From the NCBI GenBank assembly GCA_964368565.1, contig CAYJAC010000001.1, forward strand, positions 30,571 to 82,230: a DNA stretch of 51,660 nucleotides. The letters are read 5' to 3'. Under the pieces are notes generated by a model. The model saw only the letters and a program-made list of their open reading frames with translations. It made no database searches and was not told where the DNA came from. Position 1 is the stretch's first letter, and every line of letters starts with the position of its first letter. The stretch comes from an uncultured Candidatus Saccharibacteria bacterium (lineage in GTDB: Bacteria; Patescibacteriota; Minisyncoccia; Phycocordibacterales; UBA6065). The position numbers and the translations under genes are program-made. Shown one piece after another: positions 2,103-7,985 of the stretch.

Positions 2103-2227
2103 CGACTCGAATCGGCTCGTCAGCCGATTCGGTCGCGACCCCGCCTCGCCATTTTTCGAAGCGAAAAATATGGCTGCGGCTCGGACAAGCTAAAACCGCA
2201 GATAAATCTGCGGTTTTAGCTTGTCCC
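2103..2227. repeat. Three tandem hairpins at the left edge of the accessory block
   Basis: H1: gtcacgactcgaatcggct / agccgattcggtcgcgac, about 2103-2141. H2: gccatttttcg / cgaaaaatatggc, about 2150-2178. H3: perfect 19-bp stem ggacaagctaaaaccgcag / ctgcggttttagcttgtcc, 2184-2227. Confidence 0.5.
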
Positions 2228-2482: not shown

Positions 2483-2809
2483 CTATTCTTCCATTCTTTT
2501 TTTGTCCTTTTTCAAGCTCTCCTCATATTCCAGTAACTTTTCCGCAGGAGACAATCCGCCGAGCGGTTTATGCGGAAAATAGTTCCAAGCATCCGTTACA
2601 GTTTCGATGATATTACTCAGATTTTCCGGTTTGCCGTCATCAAACATGGCGATAGCCTTTTGCATGTCATCGCTGTCTTCCTCGTTGTAGATGACTTCTT
2701 TGACATCATCGAGCGTAAAGTCGCTGTCCGTTTCGTCGAGCAGCTCGTTAATATCCGCCTCGATTTTCATGCGGCGTTCCTTGATTTCTGATATTGATTG
2801 AGGATGCAT
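2483..2809 (-). CDS. Small acidic hypothetical protein encoded 6 nt downstream of the DGR RT (candidate DGR accessory gene)
   Basis: 108-aa ORF whose ATG (2807-2809) is 6 nt after the RT stop, on the same strand. It is Asp/Glu-rich, and the C-terminal 'WNYFPHKPLGGLSPAE' resembles the C-terminal motif of rve-type integrases (weak). Confidence 0.5.
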   Translation of the reverse strand: MHPQSISEIKERRMKIEADINELLDETDSDFTLDDVKEVIYNEEDSDDMQKAIAMFDDGKPENLSNIIETVTDAWNYFPHKPLGGLSPAEKLLEYEESLKKDKKRMEE

Positions 2810-2815
2810 GCAAGG

Positions 2816-3829
2816 TTATTTTAACATAACTATTTCTCTGATTTTCTCCGCGAGCTTATATGAATTTCCATGGTTGATAAGACCAAGATAGGACTGGACA
2901 GATTGCGACTTTTCCTTATTTCGTAATACGCCGTTCATCATCCTCTTTCTCGTCGTTGTTCGGAGTACTCGGTGATCGGGAAAATGTACCCAGCCCAAAA
3001 AATCCACACCTGAAGCGAATGTCTTTATGAATACCTTGTCGGGATGTAAAGAGAGTTTTAACCTTTCTTTGAGAAAACCTGATATCTGAGAAATAAGAGC
3101 CTCGACAGATGCCTTATCCGGTAAAAGAATCGCAAAGTCGTCCGCGTACCGAATATAATATTTCGTCTTCAGTCTATGTTTAGCGAATTGATCGAACTCG
3201 TTCATGTATATATTCACGAGCAGTTGCGAAGTAAGATTGCCGAGCGGCAAGCCGATGCCGAATTTTGTCGAGTAAAAACTTCCACTTATTTCGTATAGAA
3301 GTCCCATAATGTCAGGGTCAGGAATATATCCCTCAAGGATATGAAAGAGCGTCTGTTGGTCTATCGACGCAAAGAATTTCCGTATATCGCATTTCAAAAC
3401 CCACGCTGTCTTTGTCCTATTCTTTGAAACCTTATATCCAAATGCGCGGAATCGTCGTATCGCCCGATGCGATCCCTTCCTCATCCGGCAGGAGTATGAA
3501 TCAGTGATAAAAGTCCGGTCGAAAAATGGGTAGAGTTTTCTATAGAGCGTGTGATGTAAGAGTCTATCCCGTACACTTGCCTTGTGGATATCGCGCGGTT
3601 TCGGATCGTTTATTTTAAAAGCCTCATACGAAGCGTGCCTGTATGATTTAGCAGCGAGGTCTTCGTGGAGAGATATAACGTTCCTCATCAGATCCCGCTC
3701 AAATTCAAGTACGTCTTTCTTCTTGCGTTTACCTGTCCTGAATTCTTTCCAGGCTAACAGAAGATTTTCTAGAGAGATGATATCCTTGTAGGCATGAACA
3801 CATTGAATACGACCCGAACTTTGAGGCAA
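2816..3829 (-). CDS. Diversity-generating retroelement reverse transcriptase
   Basis: 337 aa. It has 'DPKPRDIHKASVRDRLLHH', a DGR-type motif 4 'LGNLTSQ' (I/LGxxxSQ) and the catalytic 'YADD'. It lacks group II maturase/En domains, and a TR/VR pair is adjacent. The predicted start is TTG, so the exact start is uncertain. Confidence 0.9.
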   Translation of the reverse strand: MPQSSGRIQCVHAYKDIISLENLLLAWKEFRTGKRKKKDVLEFERDLMRNVISLHEDLAAKSYRHASYEAFKINDPKPRDIHKASVRDRLLHHTLYRKLYPFFDRTFITDSYSCRMRKGSHRAIRRFRAFGYKVSKNRTKTAWVLKCDIRKFFASIDQQTLFHILEGYIPDPDIMGLLYEISGSFYSTKFGIGLPLGNLTSQLLVNIYMNEFDQFAKHRLKTKYYIRYADDFAILLPDKASVEALISQISGFLKERLKLSLHPDKVFIKTFASGVDFLGWVHFPDHRVLRTTTRKRMMNGVLRNKEKSQSVQSYLGLINHGNSYKLAEKIREIVMLK

Positions 3830-3830
3830 G

Positions 3831-3840
3831 CCCCCCCCCC
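3831..3840. repeat. C10 (G10 on the minus strand) homopolymer between the divergent RT and avd starts
   Basis: Read directly: 'ggcaag cccccccccc aacgg'. It occupies half of the 20-bp gap between 3829 and 3850. Confidence 0.9.
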
Positions 3841-3849
3841 AACGGAATT

Positions 3850-4212
3850 TTGCCCGTTATACACAAGATCAAACAGGCTTATTTGCTGTGGCATGGATTT
3901 TGTAGCGAGCTGCCGAAACAAGACAGATATTCGTTGGGTTTTCGCATAGATTCGTTGTTCGTGGAAGCAATCGAGGCCATCGCTGCCGCCAGTTTCTTGT
4001 CGCCCCAAGAAAAGCATCCGTACGTTCGCCTCGCCATACGCAAGCTCGACGCGCTCAAGGTACTGCTCATGATTCTTTGGGAGACAAAATCGCTCGACGA
4101 CAAGAAGTATATCGCATTATCGGTAAGCCTCGATGAAATCGGCAGAAATTTGGGCGGTTGGAGCGGGCAACTGACCAAACAAAACTCCCCAGCCAAAGCC
4201 GAGGAGAAATGA
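3850..4212 (+). CDS. avd: Avd-like four-helix-bundle protein (23S rRNA intervening-sequence protein family), DGR accessory variability determinant
   Basis: 120 aa. 'ELPKQDRYSLGFRIDSL...EAI..A' and the C-terminal 'EIGRNLGGW' are typical of the family. It lies next to RT and TR, but on the opposite strand. The start is TTG. Confidence 0.75.
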   Translation: MPVIHKIKQAYLLWHGFCSELPKQDRYSLGFRIDSLFVEAIEAIAAASFLSPQEKHPYVRLAIRKLDALKVLLMILWETKSLDDKKYIALSVSLDEIGRNLGGWSGQLTKQNSPAKAEEK

Positions 4213-4217
4213 GCGAG

Positions 4218-4342
4218 TTGCGTGACGGAGAGCCGGGTTGTTGCCATTCCAGTCGTTGTCCAACCAGTTCCAGTTGAGGACAACCTTGCCGCCGTTCTCG
4301 TAGAGATACGGGACGTTGAGGTTGCCGTCGCGGTTCTGCACG
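4218..4342 (-). repeat. DGR template repeat (TR)
   Basis: 125 bp matching 4678-4802 at a constant offset of 460. It is the adenine-rich copy (32 coding-strand A; reading frame rich in AAC/AAT Asn codons: 'NLNVPYLYENGGKVVLNWNWLDNDWNGNN'). Confidence 0.9.
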
Positions 4343-4594
4343 TTATGTGCGCGATGCCTTCCATGCCACCACCCCTTGAATGCTCTCAGGGCTGAATCGT
4401 ATTCGGCATCATAATGCCTTAGCATTGCGCACCAAGTAGCTTCATTTTTGAAGTGTCTGCATATGCCCTCCGTCCGAAACCGTGGCCGCAGACGCTCTCA
4501 GCATATGGATACTAGTTTCGGCCGCGGGAAGCCGTAACCGCCCGCAGATTCGCCTACTACCGGAGTCATCATATCAAATTTCACGTAAAAATTT

Positions 4595-4625
4595 AGCCCG
4601 GACATCGCTTGCGCGACGCCGGGCT
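4595..4625 (-). promoter_or_regulatory. GC-rich hairpin with a GCAA (GNRA) loop downstream of VR
   Basis: The stem is agcccgg / ccgggct (7 bp) plus an inner tcgc / gcga. The loop is ttgc on the plus strand, which reads GCAA on the coding strand. It lies 52 nt 3' of the VR end. Confidence 0.45.
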
Positions 4626-4672
4626 AAGAACTAAGTACAAAGAGCTAATGCTCAGTGTCTTAGGTATGAGAA

Positions 4673-5314
4673 CTAACTTGCGTGACGGAGAGCCGGGTAG
4701 AAGCCATCCCAGTCGCGGTCCAACCAGCCCCAGTCGAGGACAACCTCGCCGCCGTCCTCGTCGAGAAACGGGACGCTGAGGTCGCCGCCGCGGCTCTGCA
4801 CGACCGAAGCCCAACCGAAAGGCACTTTGCCCTTGAGGTATTTCCGGAAAAAGACGATTCCTTTCTTCTGGATTTCCTCTAGGTCGCGCAGTCCGAGACA
4901 GGTCTTGAGAAGTTTGTTGTCCTCCTCCTTGAGCTTGGCATAGACCCTGTTGCCCGTGGTCCAGTTGCCGTTCTTCTGGCCTTCGTGGAGCCACTGATCG
5001 ATTGAGCTCGCGTCGTATTCGGTCGGGCCAACATTCTCCAGTTCGGGATGAATGACTTTCTTCATCCAATCTGGGTAGATCGGCTTGACCGAGCGATCGA
5101 CACGAATGATCGAGTCGATCATGGGTTCCGGCTCAGGGATGGAAACGGGTTTAACCTTGACGGTCAACTCCGCCTCGCCCCGTGCGAGCAGGATGACTGA
5201 TTTGAGGTTCTCTCCGGTCGAGAGCCAGTCCAGGTCGGACGTGATTCCATCATTGCGCTGAAACGCAAACTCGAGCTTTTGGCCGGCGCCCTGACTCATT
5301 GCGAACGTATTCAT
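4673..5314 (-). CDS. DGR target (variable) protein; the C-terminal 41 codons are the VR
   Basis: Intact 213-aa ORF with no obvious signal peptide or TM segment. It ends '...VQSRGGDLSVPFLDEDGGEVVLDWGWLDRDWDGFYPALRHAS'. Confidence 0.85.
   Translation of the reverse strand: MNTFAMSQGAGQKLEFAFQRNDGITSDLDWLSTGENLKSVILLARGEAELTVKVKPVSIPEPEPMIDSIIRVDRSVKPIYPDWMKKVIHPELENVGPTEYDASSIDQWLHEGQKNGNWTTGNRVYAKLKEEDNKLLKTCLGLRDLEEIQKKGIVFFRKYLKGKVPFGWASVVQSRGGDLSVPFLDEDGGEVVLDWGWLDRDWDGFYPALRHAS
4678..4802 (-). repeat. DGR variable repeat (VR)
   Basis: There are 17 mismatches to TR. Sixteen fall where TR has a coding-strand A, none at G or C, and one at a T (4762 vs 4302). Confidence 0.9.
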
Positions 5315-5607
5315 GGTATTTTACTTTCCCTAATATGAGCGAGCTCCGTCGGAGCATGCTCGATTGGTTATGCTTGAATACCGGAGTGGTAGTCATAGCC
5401 AGGAAGCGCCGAAAATCAGCACCTTTTGGCTATGACTGCCCGCAAGTTGTATCAATGAGCTTACGTAAATATTATATACCCTAAAACAACATCTGTCAAG
5501 GGTGTTTGCGGTACAATTTAGTGGCCTAAAACATGGCTATTTAGAAAAATAGCTTACCAACACCTCCCTCCTTGACTCCCTAGAGGGTCTGCGTCATCCC
5601 TGTATGT

Positions 5608-6930
5608 ATGAACAACAATACGATACAAGCGCCTTTGGGAACTCCGGCCAAAATAGTAGTCCCAGTAAAGATGAAATACTGCCTGTACGCGAGGAAATCA
5701 ACGGAATCGGAGGAACAGCAAGTGCTCTCCATCGACTCGCAGATCAAGGAAATGCTCCGCCTGGCCGAGAGCGAAAAACTCGACATAACGGAGATAAAGA
5801 AAGAGTCACATTCTGCCAAGGAGACTGGGCAGAGGCCAGTATTCAATAAGATAGTCGAAGAGATAAAATCAGGAAAGTTCAACGGCATACTCACATGGGC
5901 ACCAGACCGCATATCGAGAAATGCGGGTGATCTTGGCAGAATCGTCGACCTCATGGACGTGGGTAAGCTCATAGAAATCAGGACGTACGGGTAAAGATTT
6001 ACCGATAATCCTAATGAGAAGTTTCTCCTCATGATTCTTGGTTCTCAGGCCAAGCTCGAAAACGATAATCGTCGTATCAATGTGAAGCGAGGCCTCCGAG
6101 TCAGAGTCGAGATGGGCCTCTAGCCATGCGTAGCGCCAACAGGATACATTAACTCAAAGAATAAGGATGAATGCTGTCAGATTAAGATAGACCCCAAGAG
6201 AGGGCCGATAATTCAACAAATATTCCATAAGGTGGCATACGGCAGATACAGCGGTAGGAAAATCTACTCATGGCTCAAAGATGATATACATTTCAAATCG
6301 AGATATGAGAAACCCCTCACCCTTTCTAATGTATACCTCATACTCCGCAACCATTTCTACTACGGTACGTTCGAATACCCACGAAGAAGTGGTAATTGGT
6401 ATCAGGGCAAACACGAGCCACTCATAACTAAAGAGGTTTTCGATAAAGTACAGGAGAGCATAAGCCAGCACATAATTCGGGTGGAGAGCAAAGAATTTGC
6501 CTTCACCAAACTCATGACCTGCGGCCTCTGTGGTTCAGGCATAACAGCTGATGAGAAGTTTAAGAAGCAGAAAAACGGCAATATCCATCGATATGTGTAT
6601 TACAGTTGCACCAAACACAATGACAAGGCATGCACGGGTGGCTATATATCCGAAGAAGCTCTCATAGAACAGCTTGCTGCCGTGGCCGACACAATCGACC
6701 TCAATGAGATCGGTATGAAAGAGAAAATCAAAACGGAAATCGAACGGAACAAGAAATTCCAGTCAGCGATGCTCGGCGTGAAAACCAAAGCGGTTAAAGT
6801 TGAAGATATCGATATACGAAATTACGCAAAGTATGTTTTACGGGAAGGAGCGATGGTGGAAAAACGGGAGCTATTGGGGTGCTTGAAAAGCAAAATCCTG
6901 CTTGCAAACAAAAAGATTAGTCTCACCTAA
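5608..6930 (+). pseudogene. Large serine recombinase (resolvase domain + recombinase domain + zinc ribbon) interrupted by two in-frame stop codons
   Basis: ORFs 5608-5994 and 6232-6930 are in the same frame. The connecting segment translates as recombinase sequence ('RFTDNPNEKFLLMILGSQAKLENDNRRINVKRGLRVRVEMGL*PCVAPTGY'), with TAA at 5992-5994 and TAG at 6121-6123. The catalytic 'YARKSTESEEQ' and zinc-ribbon 'CGLCGS...YYSCTKH' are present. Confidence 0.8.
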
Positions 6931-7311
6931 CTATTTTGCCTCTACGAATTTCTGTGCAAGCTCCTTAATAAGGTGCTCGTACTGATAATCGTATTTACCA
7001 CCATTACCTTGCCAACCCAAGTGGTCCCTCCTAAAGATGCCTTGTAGGAGGATTGTGTCTTCTTCGAGATCAATGATGAGCACTACGCGGAAACCGCCCG
7101 ACTTGCCCTGCTGACGAGCCTTATCTGGCAGTCGAGTAACCCAACATTCAAAGCTCCCGTTCTTGAATATGTTCGTCTGAACATTATGAGGTAACGGAAT
7201 ATTCCGAAACTCCTGAAGAGCCTTCTCGTGGAATTTATAGTTGCTGTCCTCCACATCTTCCTTTTTCCACCACTTATCAAAACTTTCTGTTCGTTGAATC
7301 TTCCAAGCCAT
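6931..7311 (-). CDS. RelE/HigB-superfamily-like toxin
   Basis: 126 aa. 'GKSGGFRVVLIIDLEEDTILLQGIFRRD' resembles the GKSGGxRvi...K core of HigB/RelE-like toxins. It sits 11 nt downstream of the Panacea-domain gene. Confidence 0.55.
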   Translation of the reverse strand: MAWKIQRTESFDKWWKKEDVEDSNYKFHEKALQEFRNIPLPHNVQTNIFKNGSFECWVTRLPDKARQQGKSGGFRVVLIIDLEEDTILLQGIFRRDHLGWQGNGGKYDYQYEHLIKELAQKFVEAK

Positions 7312-7322
7312 GAGGGACAGAG

Positions 7323-7823
7323 TTAGGCCTGAACAGGATTCTTTGAAAAGAATTCGATGTCGTCAGCGTTCTTATAATCGAGAGGTTTGCTTACCTCCGA
7401 AAACACCCATGGTGCTTCGCTGTGCGTCTGTGCAATCATTTCATCAGTACTCCAGTTTTTAAATGTCGTACAGAGATAAGAAAGAAGACTCTTTTCATAA
7501 TCATCAAAAACAGCAACGTTCGACTCTTTAAGTGCCTGATAGCGATTTCGCTTACCAAATTTTGCACTATCGTCTTCAGATTGGGTGATTAGTTTATCTT
7601 TTTCGGCAACCTTAATAATCACATCCTGTAGTTCGGATGCAAATGGGCCCATAGGAAGATGTTTGTATACCTCACCAGTCACATTCTGCTTGCGGTCGCG
7701 ATACGAGATGAAATCGAGGTAGTAGAAAAGCTTGTTGAGCTTGGTAATGCCAAGCTTTTCATTGCCGCAATGGGAAATGAAGTATAGGAGAGCGTTTATG
7801 TACTTTTCTTTATTAATGGCCAT
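7323..7823 (-). CDS. Panacea (DUF4065, SocA-like) domain antitoxin
   Basis: 166 aa. 'GITKLNKLFYYLDFISY...HLPMGPF' matches the KLxKLxY...GP signature of DUF4065. Confidence 0.7.
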   Translation of the reverse strand: MAINKEKYINALLYFISHCGNEKLGITKLNKLFYYLDFISYRDRKQNVTGEVYKHLPMGPFASELQDVIIKVAEKDKLITQSEDDSAKFGKRNRYQALKESNVAVFDDYEKSLLSYLCTTFKNWSTDEMIAQTHSEAPWVFSEVSKPLDYKNADDIEFFSKNPVQA

Positions 7824-7869: not shown

Positions 7870-7912
7870 GATTTACACAGCCTTCTCGGACTCCGAACCT
7901 ATCACATGAATG

Positions 7913-7985
7913 TCCGCCCAGTTGGAATCGAACCAACGACCCACTCCTTAAAAGGGAGATGCTCTACCAACTGAGCTATGGGCGG
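7913..7985 (-). tRNA. tRNA-Lys (anticodon UUU)
   Basis: Hand-folded cloverleaf: acceptor ccgccca/tgggcgg, D arm gctc-agttggta-gagc, anticodon loop cTTTTaa, T arm gttgg-ttcgatt-ccaac. CCA is not encoded. There is an unusual C1:G72 pair and a U27-U43 mismatch. Confidence 0.85.

What the first reader, a model, noticed from the sequence alone, without database searches (positions are those of the whole stretch)
2483..5314. Complete diversity-generating retroelement with an almost pure adenine-only TR/VR mismatch pattern
A 125-bp direct repeat is present at 4218-4342 (TR) and 4678-4802 (VR), at a constant offset of 460 bp with no indels. I counted 17 mismatches by hand.

- Sixteen are at positions where the TR copy has A on the coding (minus) strand.
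- None are at G or C.
- One is at a T (4302 vs 4762).
- The TR copy has 32 coding-strand adenines, so half are substituted.

In the reading frame, all 10 Asn (AAC/AAT) codons of TR are replaced in VR (S, D, S, D, D, G, R, D, F, Y). In total 14 of 41 codons differ.

VR forms the exact C-terminus of an intact 213-aa ORF. A 337-aa RT with LGNLTSQ and YADD motifs and an Avd-like four-helix-bundle gene are adjacent. DGRs are known to be frequent in CPR genomes, so the class is not new. This copy nevertheless looks intact and recently active, and it has several atypical features, listed as separate findings.
Basis: partly seen in the sequence, partly recalled or inferred. Interest (0 to 1): 0.8.

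Follow-up and report, generated by a model that had tools for sequence, protein, structure and literature searches.

The report
Intact CPR-type diversity-generating retroelement
This is a complete, ordinary diversity-generating retroelement of the kind common in CPR (Patescibacteria) bacteria; beyond the finding, its template sits in a ~390-nt non-coding RNA with a conserved 219-nt folded 5' domain that I found in no RNA family or paper available here.

Summary
TR 4218-4342 and VR 4678-4802 differ at 17 sites. Sixteen are at coding-strand adenines and one is at a T. All 10 Asn codons are changed.

The RT's best solved relative is Bordetella phage bRT. Avd is present, and VR ends an intact 213-aa gene. 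About 36 related Patescibacteria loci share the same cassette and the same A-only pattern.

Avd on the opposite strand between TR and RT is not atypical. It is Wu et al.'s architecture B3, which makes up 90% of their CPR DGRs. So this is a new member of a known kind. Whether it is currently active cannot be tested here; two run assemblies carry the identical VR.

Follow-up added four points:
- A 219-nt RNA domain immediately 5' of TR has strong covariation. It has no Rfam match and occurs in at least 120 metagenome stretches, with at least 4 unrelated target families.
- A 9-bp tetraloop hairpin plus U-tract follows TR. This matches the published Avd-binding stem-loop.
- No RNA-level constraint extends further into antisense avd, so a BPP-1-like 3' spacer seems absent.
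- The target's VR domain gives a confident model with no Foldseek neighbour in PDB.

The parts
5471..5499 (-). Promoter-like site upstream of the target gene (TTGACA-17-TATAAT, 12/12 match)
   Evidence: This is a consensus match only. It lies about 155 nt upstream of the ATG at 5314.
4673..5314 (-). Target (variable protein) gene, 213 aa. It has an N-terminal helical part, a linker, and a C-terminal domain (residues ~60-213) that carries VR.
   Evidence: - ORF.
- 224 homologues, all unnamed, from CPR.
- No Pfam, NCBIfam or PDB sequence match.
- AF2 pLDDT 91 for the full protein and 94.4 for the domain.
- No Foldseek neighbour.
4678..4802 (-). Variable repeat (VR)
4678..4698 (-). IMH-like 3' segment of VR (ACCCGGCTCTCCGTCACGCAA). 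It is identical to the TR 3' end and carries no substitution at its 4 A's.
   Evidence: The segment is conserved across loci. Identical IMH/IMH* pairs are described for some DGRs in PMC5758913.
4631..4663 (-). Three-tier imperfect hairpin 15-47 nt after VR. It is the counterpart of the inverted repeat downstream of IMH in BPP-1.
   Evidence: It is predicted at the same place in nearly all of the 29 loci folded, with different stem sequences. No formal covariation count was made.
4584..4627 (-). Strong hairpin followed by AUUUUU; likely terminator of the target gene
   Evidence: Fold. Equivalent G+C hairpin and T-run seen in other loci.
4568..4576 (-). Extended -10-like box TGATATGAT, 6 nt upstream of the first conserved RNA base
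   Evidence: - TGnTAnnnT lies at a fixed distance from GGTAGTAGG in the loci.
- It is the only such box on this strand between 3800 and 4700.
- The promoter role is inferred.
4343..4561 (-). Conserved structured RNA domain immediately 5' of TR. Helices, each given as its 5' arm then its 3' arm (minus-strand order): P1 4561-4536 with 4533-4514; P2 4507-4485 with 4480-4460; small hairpin ~4453-4440; P3 4432-4421 with 4358-4347, which encloses two hairpins.
   Evidence: - 26-sequence alignment A3: 54 pairs, 38 of them with compensatory changes.
- 97.4% of cells are paired, against 36-46% when partners are slid. 0 of 500 shuffles reach the observed value.
- Many G-U pairs fix the strand.
- No Rfam match at E<=10 apart from a chance snoRNA hit.
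- At least 120 metagenome stretches carry it.
- Coordinates.
4439..4447 (-). AAAUGAAGC element of the 5' domain, proposed to pair with GCUCAUUU (4207-4214) just 3' of TR
   Evidence: Over 93 unique loci the cognate duplex energy is -6.80 kcal/mol, against -5.91 +/- 0.11 for permuted partners (0 of 500 as low). Compensatory examples are L027, L025, L032, L055, L056, L081 and L088.
4218..4342 (-). Template repeat (TR). It has 32 A's and 19 codons that can vary, giving about 4.9e17 possible protein variants.
4207..4214 (-). GCUCAUUU, the post-TR strand of the proposed long-range duplex
4175..4206 (-). 9-bp stem with UUUG tetraloop (4206-4185) followed by UUUUGUUUGG. It is an Avd-binding-type stem-loop and a likely intrinsic terminator. 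It is antisense to the avd stop codon and the last ~12 codons.
   Evidence: - Terminator scan.
- Present in 33 of 35 genome loci and 73 of 74 metagenome loci, with unrelated stem sequences.
- Matches the element reported for 207 of 278 Avd-containing DGRs in bioRxiv 10.1101/2023.10.23.563531.
3850..4212 (+). avd (accessory variability determinant), 120 aa, convergent with TR and divergent from RT
   Evidence: It has the same position and orientation in all related cassettes.
2816..3829 (-). DGR reverse transcriptase, 337 aa. R79 corresponds to bRT R74. L196 of LGNLTSQ corresponds to bRT I181. Q202 corresponds to bRT Q187. D148 and YADD 228-231 are also present.
   Evidence: The start codon is uncertain (TTG at 3829).

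Best explanation
The region is a structurally intact, chromosomal diversity-generating retroelement of the Patescibacteria (CPR) lineage. Its layout is target-VR, then TR, then avd on the opposite strand, then RT.

Proposed working, with each step marked shown or inferred:
1. The target gene is transcribed from its own promoter and ends at a hairpin/U-run (inferred).
2. A separate non-coding RNA of about 390 nt starts near 4561, behind an extended -10 box, and probably ends at the U-tract near 4176. It contains a 219-nt folded 5' domain, the 125-nt TR and a 9-bp tetraloop hairpin. The conserved structure and the hairpin are shown. The RNA ends are inferred.
3. A short duplex between the 5' domain (4447-4439) and the 8 nt just after TR (4214-4207) closes TR into a loop. 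This is statistically supported, not proven.
4. RT with Avd binds this RNA. The post-TR hairpin is the counterpart of the Avd-binding stem-loop of the Bordetella phage element. RT copies TR from its 3' end and misincorporates opposite adenines. This is inferred from family knowledge. The A-specific outcome is shown.
5. The cDNA replaces VR, guided by the shared 21-nt 3' segment and the hairpin after VR (inferred).
6. The result is variation at up to 19 codons on one face of the C-terminal domain of a 213-aa protein of unknown function.

There is no sequence constraint antisense to avd beyond the hairpin. The roles played by the 140-nt 3' spacer in the Bordetella phage RNA are therefore most likely taken over by the 5' domain (inferred).
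For: - A-specific TR/VR pattern, P about 1e-10. The codon-level design uses AAY codons.
- The RT is closest to bRT, with an I/LGxxxSQ-type motif and a YADD motif. Avd hits.
- The same cassette occurs in about 36 genome loci and 72 metagenome loci, with A-biased repeats.
- The architecture is B3 of PMC5758913. The clade is cellular and CPR-restricted according to PMC8144416. The RNA motif has 0 matches in IMG/VR.
- 5' RNA domain: 38 of 54 pairs are compensatory, and 97.4% of cells are paired against about 40% in slid controls. TR starts a median of 223 nt after the motif start.
- The post-TR hairpin is near-universal and matches published Avd-binding stem-loops.
- The synonymous-difference fraction in 100 avd genes is 0.5-0.7 for codons 1-108 and 0.25-0.34 only for codons 109-120.
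- Long-range duplex permutation test: 0 of 500.
- Two loci (L117, L190) have target-VR-RNA-TR with A-only mismatches but no avd or RT within about 3 kb. This fits an RNA gene that stands on its own.
Against: - No read-level data: the VR consensus is identical in two sequencing runs, so ongoing activity is unproven.
- One non-A mismatch (T to G) shows some ordinary change since the last homing, or an RT error.
- Avd scores are below the curated cut-offs (52 vs 80 bits; 33.5 vs 40).
- The promoter, the RNA ends and the terminator function rest on consensus matches only.
- A terminator between TR and RT leaves RT expression unexplained. Only weak -10-like boxes exist at 4121 and 4111.
- The priming site is unknown.
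- The RT start codon is uncertain, and a C10 run lies between the RT and avd starts.
- The permutation test for the long-range duplex does not correct for shared ancestry.
- Only the hairpin was compared with the bRT RNA elements; no test was made for thumb-ring or bRT-binding equivalents.
Confidence: 0.85

Rival explanations
1. The cassette is a DGR that is intact in sequence but no longer (or only very rarely) active. VR would then be a frozen product of past homing.
For: - VR is identical in the window and in two independent run assemblies.
- There is one non-A mismatch.
- A C10 homopolymer lies at the avd/RT start region. One extra C would extend avd by 19 codons, as in some relatives.
- About half of the homologous target genes in other genomes have no DGR beside them.
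Against: - RT, avd, the 5' RNA domain, both hairpins and the target ORF are all intact.
- All 14 codon differences are non-synonymous with no stop.
- Non-A mismatches of 0-3 are common in sister loci.
- Consensus assemblies cannot show minority alleles.
Confidence: 0.12
2. The 219-nt conserved RNA is not part of the reverse-transcription complex. It would be a leader or regulatory RNA (for example one controlling TR transcription or stability), and the post-TR hairpin would be only a transcription terminator.
For: - The hairpin is followed by a U-tract in most loci.
- No pairing between the 5' domain and the TR 3' end was found.
- The published analysis saw BPP-1-like elements using only 40 nt upstream of TR.
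Against: - The RNA domain keeps a fixed distance to TR and travels with the TR-(avd)-RT core across at least 4 unrelated target families.
- A covarying duplex links it to the 8 nt just after TR.
- No other conserved RNA is available to play the spacer's roles.
Confidence: 0.15
3. This is not a DGR. The repeat would be a decaying partial duplication of the gene's 3' end, next to an unrelated group II intron, retron or defence RT.
For: - NCBIfam's best hit for the RT is the group II intron RT model (E 6e-38), far below its cut-off (131 vs 300 bits).
- NCBIfam returned no DGR-specific RT family among its hits.
Against: - 16 of 17 mismatches fall on one base of one strand.
- bRT is the best solved relative by 70 bits.
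- The RT has no maturase or endonuclease domains at 337 aa.
- avd is adjacent.
- The arrangement recurs in more than 100 loci, each with its own A-biased repeat.
Confidence: 0.01

Closest known systems
CPR/Patescibacteria DGRs: architecture B3, TR-(avd)-RT, of Wu et al. 2018 (PMC5758913); DGR clade 2 of Roux et al. 2021 (PMC8144416)
   Same: - Gene order and orientation.
- Host phylum.
- Chromosomal (non-viral) setting.
- C-terminal VR in a small protein with no recognisable domain or membrane signal.
- Identical IMH/IMH*-like ends.
   Different: Nothing at the level of the cassette; this is a member. The 219-nt 5' RNA domain and the long-range duplex are not mentioned in the papers I could read. 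Paul et al. 2017 could not be read.
Bordetella phage BPP-1 DGR (mtd-avd-TR-brt) and its bRT-Avd-RNA complex (PDB 8ub7; bioRxiv 10.1101/2023.10.23.563531)
   Same: - RT family.
- Avd.
- A-specific mutagenesis.
- VR at the C-terminus.
- GC-rich 3' boundary segment.
- Hairpin after VR.
- 9-bp tetraloop stem-loop just after TR.
- A duplex joining sequences on either side of TR.
   Different: - avd is inverted and lies where the 140-nt spacer (Sp) would be.
- No constrained RNA lies beyond about 47 nt after TR.
- A large folded domain lies 5' of TR, instead of the 20 nt needed in BPP-1.
- IMH and IMH* are identical.
- The target is not a recognisable C-type lectin fold.
- The element is cellular, not phage-borne.
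RT-10 RNA motif (Weinberg et al. 2017, PMC5737381), the structured RNA between TR and brt
   Same: A conserved structured RNA that belongs to a DGR and flanks TR.
   Different: RT-10 lies 3' of TR. The RNA here lies 5' of TR. It gives no match to any Rfam 15 family, in a scan that would show any of the RT-1 to RT-19 motifs that Rfam holds.
Retron msr-msd RNA
   Same: Layout only: a folded non-coding domain lies 5' of the template in one transcript, with the ends of the template region brought together by pairing.
   Different: - The RT clade is different.
- No msDNA is expected.
- Priming from the 5' domain is a conjecture here.
- The product is used for homing into a gene.

Membership tests
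Diversity-generating retroelement (DGR) | TR/VR repeat pair whose differences fall almost only at TR adenines | tested here: met
   16 of 17 mismatches are at A, P about 1e-10.
Diversity-generating retroelement (DGR) | Reverse transcriptase of the DGR clade | tested here: met
   - The best solved relative is bRT 8ub7, E 5.9e-41, 144 bits, against 73 bits for the best group II RT.
- LGNLTSQ, YADD and the R79 equivalent of bRT R74 are present.
- It is syntenic with TR/VR in more than 100 loci.
- No formal phylogeny was run.
Diversity-generating retroelement (DGR) | VR inside an intact target ORF, usually at its 3' end | tested here: met
   VR is 4678-4802, the ORF is 4673-5314, and there are no stops.
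Diversity-generating retroelement (DGR) | Accessory protein Avd | tested here: met
   - NF033474 matches at E 5.8e-14 over 1-102 of 104 positions, and PF22296 at E 6e-8.
- Both are below the curated cut-offs.
- The position is conserved in all sister cassettes.
Diversity-generating retroelement (DGR) | IMH/IMH* boundary segment and inverted repeat downstream of VR | tested here: met
   - A 21-nt identical, unsubstituted, G+C-rich 3' segment is present.
- A hairpin lies 15-47 nt after VR in nearly all of the 29 loci folded.
- The function was not tested.
Diversity-generating retroelement (DGR) | Ongoing diversification (several VR alleles in a population) | not testable with these tools
   No reads are available. 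Two assemblies carry the identical VR.
CPR DGR, architecture B3 (TR-(avd)-RT) | avd on the reverse strand between TR and RT; host in Patescibacteria | tested here: met
   - Coordinates.
- All 80 related genome loci carry MAG titles that name Patescibacteria groups or are unspecific, apart from a few that name other taxa.
- Definition: PMC5758913.
BPP-1-type DGR RNA (upstream 20 nt + TR + 140-nt 3' spacer) | Avd-binding stem-loop just after TR | tested here: met
   A 9-bp stem with a tetraloop lies at 4206-4185.
BPP-1-type DGR RNA (upstream 20 nt + TR + 140-nt 3' spacer) | Long conserved structured spacer 3' of TR that carries the priming site | tested here: not met
   Synonymous sites of avd are unconstrained except in the last ~12 codons. 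The Rfam scan returned no RT-family motif.
C-type lectin-fold DGR variable proteins (Mtd, TvpA, AvpA, TaqVP) | VR displayed on a C-type lectin / FGE-like fold | tested here: inconclusive
   - No Pfam FGE-sulfatase or DUF1566 hit in 43 members.
- No PDB profile hit.
- A confident model (pLDDT 94.4) has no Foldseek match: best E 1.1, TM <=0.19.
- The order of secondary-structure elements (strand, two helical stretches, four strands) and the C-terminal 'ALRxAS' remind me of the fold, from my own knowledge.
- Foldseek may miss so distant a relative.

The most novel reading that the evidence does not exclude
CPR DGRs, this one included, would use a rearranged template RNA.

- It would be a free-standing non-coding RNA gene of about 390 nt with its own promoter and terminator.
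- A 219-nt folded domain 5' of TR would do the work of the 3' spacer of the Bordetella phage element, namely RT/Avd docking, positioning of the primer and the stop. This domain is tied to the 3' flank of TR by a short duplex.
- The RNA is not in Rfam, and I found no description of it.
- In addition, the diversified domain of the target may be a scaffold unrelated to the C-type lectin fold.
Probability: 0.4. Interest if true: 0.7.

Novelty: new member of a known kind. Interest (0 to 1): 0.5.

Why it matters
As a DGR, this locus adds one more intact example to a clade already catalogued in the thousands.

What could matter is the shared RNA. Architecture B3 puts avd, in antisense, exactly where the only mechanistically understood DGR keeps the RNA that primes and controls reverse transcription. 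The conserved 5' domain offers a concrete and testable answer to how these elements build their ribonucleoprotein. It also gives a compact search handle for finding CPR DGR templates: at least 120 hits with a strict pattern, none in viral contigs, including template loci that lack an adjacent RT.

The target family (more than 220 proteins) has a confident predicted fold with no solved neighbour. It is therefore a candidate for a further natural scaffold that tolerates massive variation.

Tried and rejected
- A search for further VRs of this TR in the window, matching non-A positions only, found none.
- The target protein has no match in Pfam, NCBIfam, PDB by sequence or PDB by profile.
- Foldseek of the full-length model and the domain-only model against PDB, and of the full-length model against BFVD, gave nothing below E 0.29.
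- Pfam scans of four other CPR target families, looking for a lectin link, found only PcfJ in one.
- Rfam at gathering threshold on the whole window gave only tRNAs. At E<=10 on 4100-4720 it gave only a chance snoRNA hit.
- ORF 2483-2809 (108 aa, acidic) as a DGR accessory gene: it has no Pfam or NCBIfam hit and no tblastn match in the 80 related genome loci. I rejected it as part of the element.
- A BPP-1-like spacer RNA antisense to avd is rejected by the synonymous-site test.
- Pairing of the invariant GAGAG internal loop of the 5' domain with the GCUCUC of the TR 3' end: by eye, the loop stays the same where the TR sequence changes. Rejected.
- Pairing of the post-hairpin U-tract with the AACAA of TR has no support in loci that lack AACAA.
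- Reading Paul et al. 2017 (PMC5436926) and the supplement of Wu et al. 2018: neither is held. A 2026 preprint that mentions DGRs and covariation could not be opened.
- The phage origin of the RNA motif was tested: 0 matches in IMG/VR.


Full report
**1. Check of the observation**

The repeat finder returns a single long direct repeat in the region: 4218-4342 and 4678-4802, 125 nt, offset 460, 86% identity, no gaps.

A base-by-base comparison gives 17 mismatches.
- Sixteen have T on the plus strand in the 4218 copy, which is A on the minus (coding) strand.
- One has plus-strand A (4302/4762), which is coding-strand T.
- None is at G or C.

The 4218 copy has 32 coding-strand A's out of 125 bases. 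The chance that at least 16 of 17 mismatches fall on A is 1.4e-10 (hypergeometric).

In the reading frame of the 213-aa ORF 4673-5314 (-), the findings are as follows.
- All ten Asn codons of TR are changed, to S, D, S, D, D, G, R, D, F, Y.
- 14 of 41 codons differ, and all 14 changes alter the amino acid.
- 31 of 32 TR adenines are at codon positions 1 or 2.
- The one non-A change turns TAC (Tyr) into GAC (Asp).

The repeat stops 2 nt into the last sense codon, and TAG follows. No other VR-like copy of TR is in the window.

**2. The genes**

- RT. The 337-aa ORF 2816-3829 (-) matches RVT_1. Among solved structures it is closest to the Bordetella phage DGR reverse transcriptase bRT (8ub7, E 5.9e-41, 144 bits). 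The best group II intron RT scores 73 bits. From that alignment, R79 corresponds to bRT R74, L196 of LGNLTSQ to bRT I181, and Q202 to bRT Q187. YADD is at 228-231. NCBIfam's retron, defence-RT and group II models all score far below their cut-offs.
- Avd. The 120-aa ORF 3850-4212 is on the PLUS strand. It matches the DGR Avd model NF033474 over its whole length (E 5.8e-14) and PF22296 (E 6e-8). Both scores are below the curated cut-offs.
- Target. The target protein has no Pfam, NCBIfam or PDB sequence match.
- ORF 2483-2809. This ORF was included in the finding's coordinates. It has no family match and is absent from all related loci. I do not count it as part of the element.

**3. Relatives**

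The target has 224 homologues, all unnamed. Where a name is given, they come from CPR bacteria. Their alignment shows a conserved scaffold with hypervariable positions exactly where the TR adenines fall.

A scan of one genome per species found 80 loci.
- Nearly all are Patescibacteria MAGs.
- In about 36 of them the target gene is followed by a repeat, an avd on the opposite strand and an RT on the target's strand.
- In those loci the repeat mismatches are again almost all at A.
- The other ~43 homologous genes have no DGR beside them.

The inverted avd is thus a lineage trait. The literature agrees.
- Wu et al. 2018 define architecture B3 as TR-(avd)-RT and state that it accounts for 90% of their CPR set (PMC5758913).
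- Roux et al. 2021 describe a cellular, CPR-restricted DGR clade 2 whose targets lack recognisable domains (PMC8144416).

**4. Cis elements after VR and after TR**

- The last 21 nt of VR and TR (ACCCGGCTCTCCGTCACGCAA) are identical and unsubstituted. Identical IMH/IMH* pairs are known for some DGRs.
- A three-tier hairpin lies 15-47 nt after VR (4663-4631). It is predicted in the same place in nearly all of the 29 loci folded, with different stem sequences. It is the counterpart of the inverted repeat after IMH in BPP-1.
- A second strong hairpin with a U-run (4627-4584) looks like the target gene's terminator.
- Eleven nt after TR there is a 9-bp stem with a tetraloop (4206-4185), followed by UUUUGUUUGG.
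  - It is present in 33 of 35 genome loci and 73 of 74 metagenome loci, often with unrelated stem sequences.
  - It matches the 'Avd-binding stem-loop' reported just downstream of TR in 207 of 278 Avd-containing DGRs: most commonly 9 bp, capped by tetraloops (bioRxiv 10.1101/2023.10.23.563531).
  - Here it overlaps the avd stop codon and C-terminal tail on the other strand.

**5. A structured RNA domain 5' of TR (not in the finding)**

Aligning the VR-to-TR spacers of 35 loci showed that the ~220 nt just before TR are strongly conserved.

On a 26-sequence alignment, RNAalifold predicts 54 pairs, 38 of them with compensatory changes.

Counting those pairs gives the following.
- 97.4% of cells are paired, against 36-46% when partners are slid by 1-3 columns.
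- 229 cells show double changes, against 22-58 in the slid controls.
- No shuffle out of 500 reaches the observed values.

Frequent G-U pairs show that the RNA is read in the TR sense.

An extended -10-like box (TGATATGAT, 4576-4568) lies 6 nt before the first conserved base. It is seen at the same distance in the other loci.

No Rfam 15 family matches. Rfam's scan would have shown any match to the 'RT' motifs of Weinberg et al. that it holds. One of those, RT-10, is the BPP-1 spacer (PMC5737381).

It found none in 2.9 million viral contigs.

In those metagenome loci:
- avd (-) and RT (+) follow at fixed distances.
- TR begins a median of 223 nt after the motif start.
- 72 of 87 testable loci have an A-biased repeat.
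- The targets fall into at least four unrelated families.

The RNA therefore belongs to the TR-(avd)-RT core and not to this particular target.

**6. Is there a BPP-1-like 3' spacer?**

In BPP-1, a 140-nt spacer after TR primes and controls reverse transcription. Here that space is antisense avd.

In 100 unique avd genes I measured the fraction of identical-residue pairs that use different codons (a smaller set is).
- It is 0.5-0.7 for codons 1-108.
- It drops to 0.25-0.34 only in codons 109-120, which cover the hairpin and U-tract.

So no RNA- or DNA-level constraint reaches more than about 47 nt past TR.

Conversely, the 5' domain element AAAUGAAGC (4447-4439) is complementary to GCUCAUUU (4214-4207) between TR and the hairpin.
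- Over 93 unique loci the cognate duplex energy is -6.80 kcal/mol, against -5.91 +/- 0.11 for permuted partners (0 of 500 as low).
- Clear compensatory cases are L027, L025/L032, L055/L056, L081 and L088.
- The same element can also pair locally with CACUUCA (4455-4449), so alternative pairings are possible.

I infer that the template RNA is a discrete unit of about 390 nt, made of the 5' domain, TR and the hairpin/U-tract, and that the 5' domain takes over spacer functions. The RNA ends, the priming site and the protein contacts are not shown.

**7. The target protein**

- AlphaFold2 with the family alignment gives pLDDT 91 for the whole protein. For residues 60-213 it gives pLDDT 94.4 and pTM 0.88.
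- Foldseek finds nothing significant in PDB (best E 0.48 and 1.1; TM <=0.27) or in BFVD. A family profile finds nothing in PDB sequences.
- Known DGR variable proteins use the C-type lectin fold, and Roux et al. expect CPR VR domains to be new variants of it.
- My tests do not show membership, but Foldseek may be too insensitive, so the point stays open.
- The protein has no obvious signal peptide or membrane segment (my reading of the sequence).
- If every A can vary, 19 codons give about 4.9e17 variants.

**8. Activity**

Everything needed is intact, but I cannot test activity.
- Two Logan assemblies from separate runs are 100% identical to the window over 4.1 and 2.0 kb, VR included.
- One non-A mismatch exists. 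Sister loci commonly show 0-3 such mismatches.

**9. Setting**

The cassette lies between a SpoU methylase gene (1582-2055) and tRNA-Lys (7912-7985). In the same interval are a serine recombinase split into two ORFs and a Panacea-domain gene. Housekeeping genes (holA-like, polA, tsaE, a PilB-type ATPase) follow. The setting is chromosomal, possibly in a small degraded island.

**10. Verdict**

The finding is real and correctly interpreted. As a DGR it is a typical member of a known CPR clade, and the 'atypical' gene order is that clade's norm.

The added value lies in three results that hold for the whole clade:
- the conserved 5' RNA domain;
- the evidence against a 3' spacer;
- the target domain without structural neighbours.

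I could not find these described, though one key paper (Paul et al. 2017) was not available to me.

Noticed in passing
window 4343-4561 (-), with loci L003-L081 and L083-L202: A conserved 219-nt structured RNA lies directly 5' of TR. 38 of its 54 pairs show compensatory changes, and it has no Rfam match. It occurs in at least 120 metagenome stretches and none in viral contigs, always next to TR-(avd)-RT whatever the target family.
   Followed up: yes
window 3831-3840: A run of 10 C (G10 on the RT strand) lies in the 20-bp gap between the RT and avd start codons. One more C would join ORF 3794-3949 (MNTLNTTRTLRQAPPP...) in frame with avd, giving an N-terminal extension like the 'PPPxxILPV' seen in several relatives. 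The Logan contig L001 ends at 3869, close to the run. This could be a sequencing error, a slippage site or simply the RT's ribosome-binding region.
   Followed up: partly
L117 and L190; also L092, L112, L128, L148, L162, L171, L173, L178: Some metagenome loci carry the RNA motif but no avd or RT within several kb. L117 and L190 also carry an A-only TR/VR pair. These may be template units served in trans by an RT elsewhere, or remnants.
   Followed up: partly
L010, L012-L015, L021, L026, L031, L034, L038-L040 and about 30 further loci: About half of the genes homologous to the target in other Patescibacteria genomes have no TR, avd or RT nearby. The protein family therefore also exists outside DGR cassettes, or is targeted from a distance.
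   Followed up: no
window 5608-5994 (+) and 6232-6930 (+): A large serine recombinase is split into two ORFs: the Resolvase N-terminal domain, then the Recombinase and zinc-ribbon domains, with about 240 nt between them. It lies right next to the DGR and is probably a pseudogene of an integrated element.
   Followed up: partly
window 6931-7311 (-), 7323-7823 (-), 7912-7985 (-): A Panacea-domain (SocA-like antitoxin) gene sits with a 126-aa partner of no known family, next to tRNA-Lys(UUU). Together with the recombinase pieces, this suggests a small island between the SpoU methylase gene and the tRNA.
   Followed up: no
window 2183-2226: A perfect 21-nt inverted repeat with a 2-nt gap (GGACAAGCTAAAACCGCAGAT/ATCTGCGGTTTTAGCTTGTCC) lies between the SpoU methylase gene and the DGR side of the region.
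   Followed up: no
window 5388-5440 (-) and 5471-5499 (-): A perfect-consensus sigma-70-type promoter lies about 155 nt upstream of the target gene's ATG. A 25-nt imperfect inverted repeat sits in the presumed 5' untranslated region.
   Followed up: no
window 4117-4425 (-); L001 3525-3833, L002 1068-1376: A 102-aa ORF that runs across part of the 5' RNA domain and the whole TR is called as a gene in the public assemblies. It is most likely a spurious call on the template RNA.
   Followed up: partly
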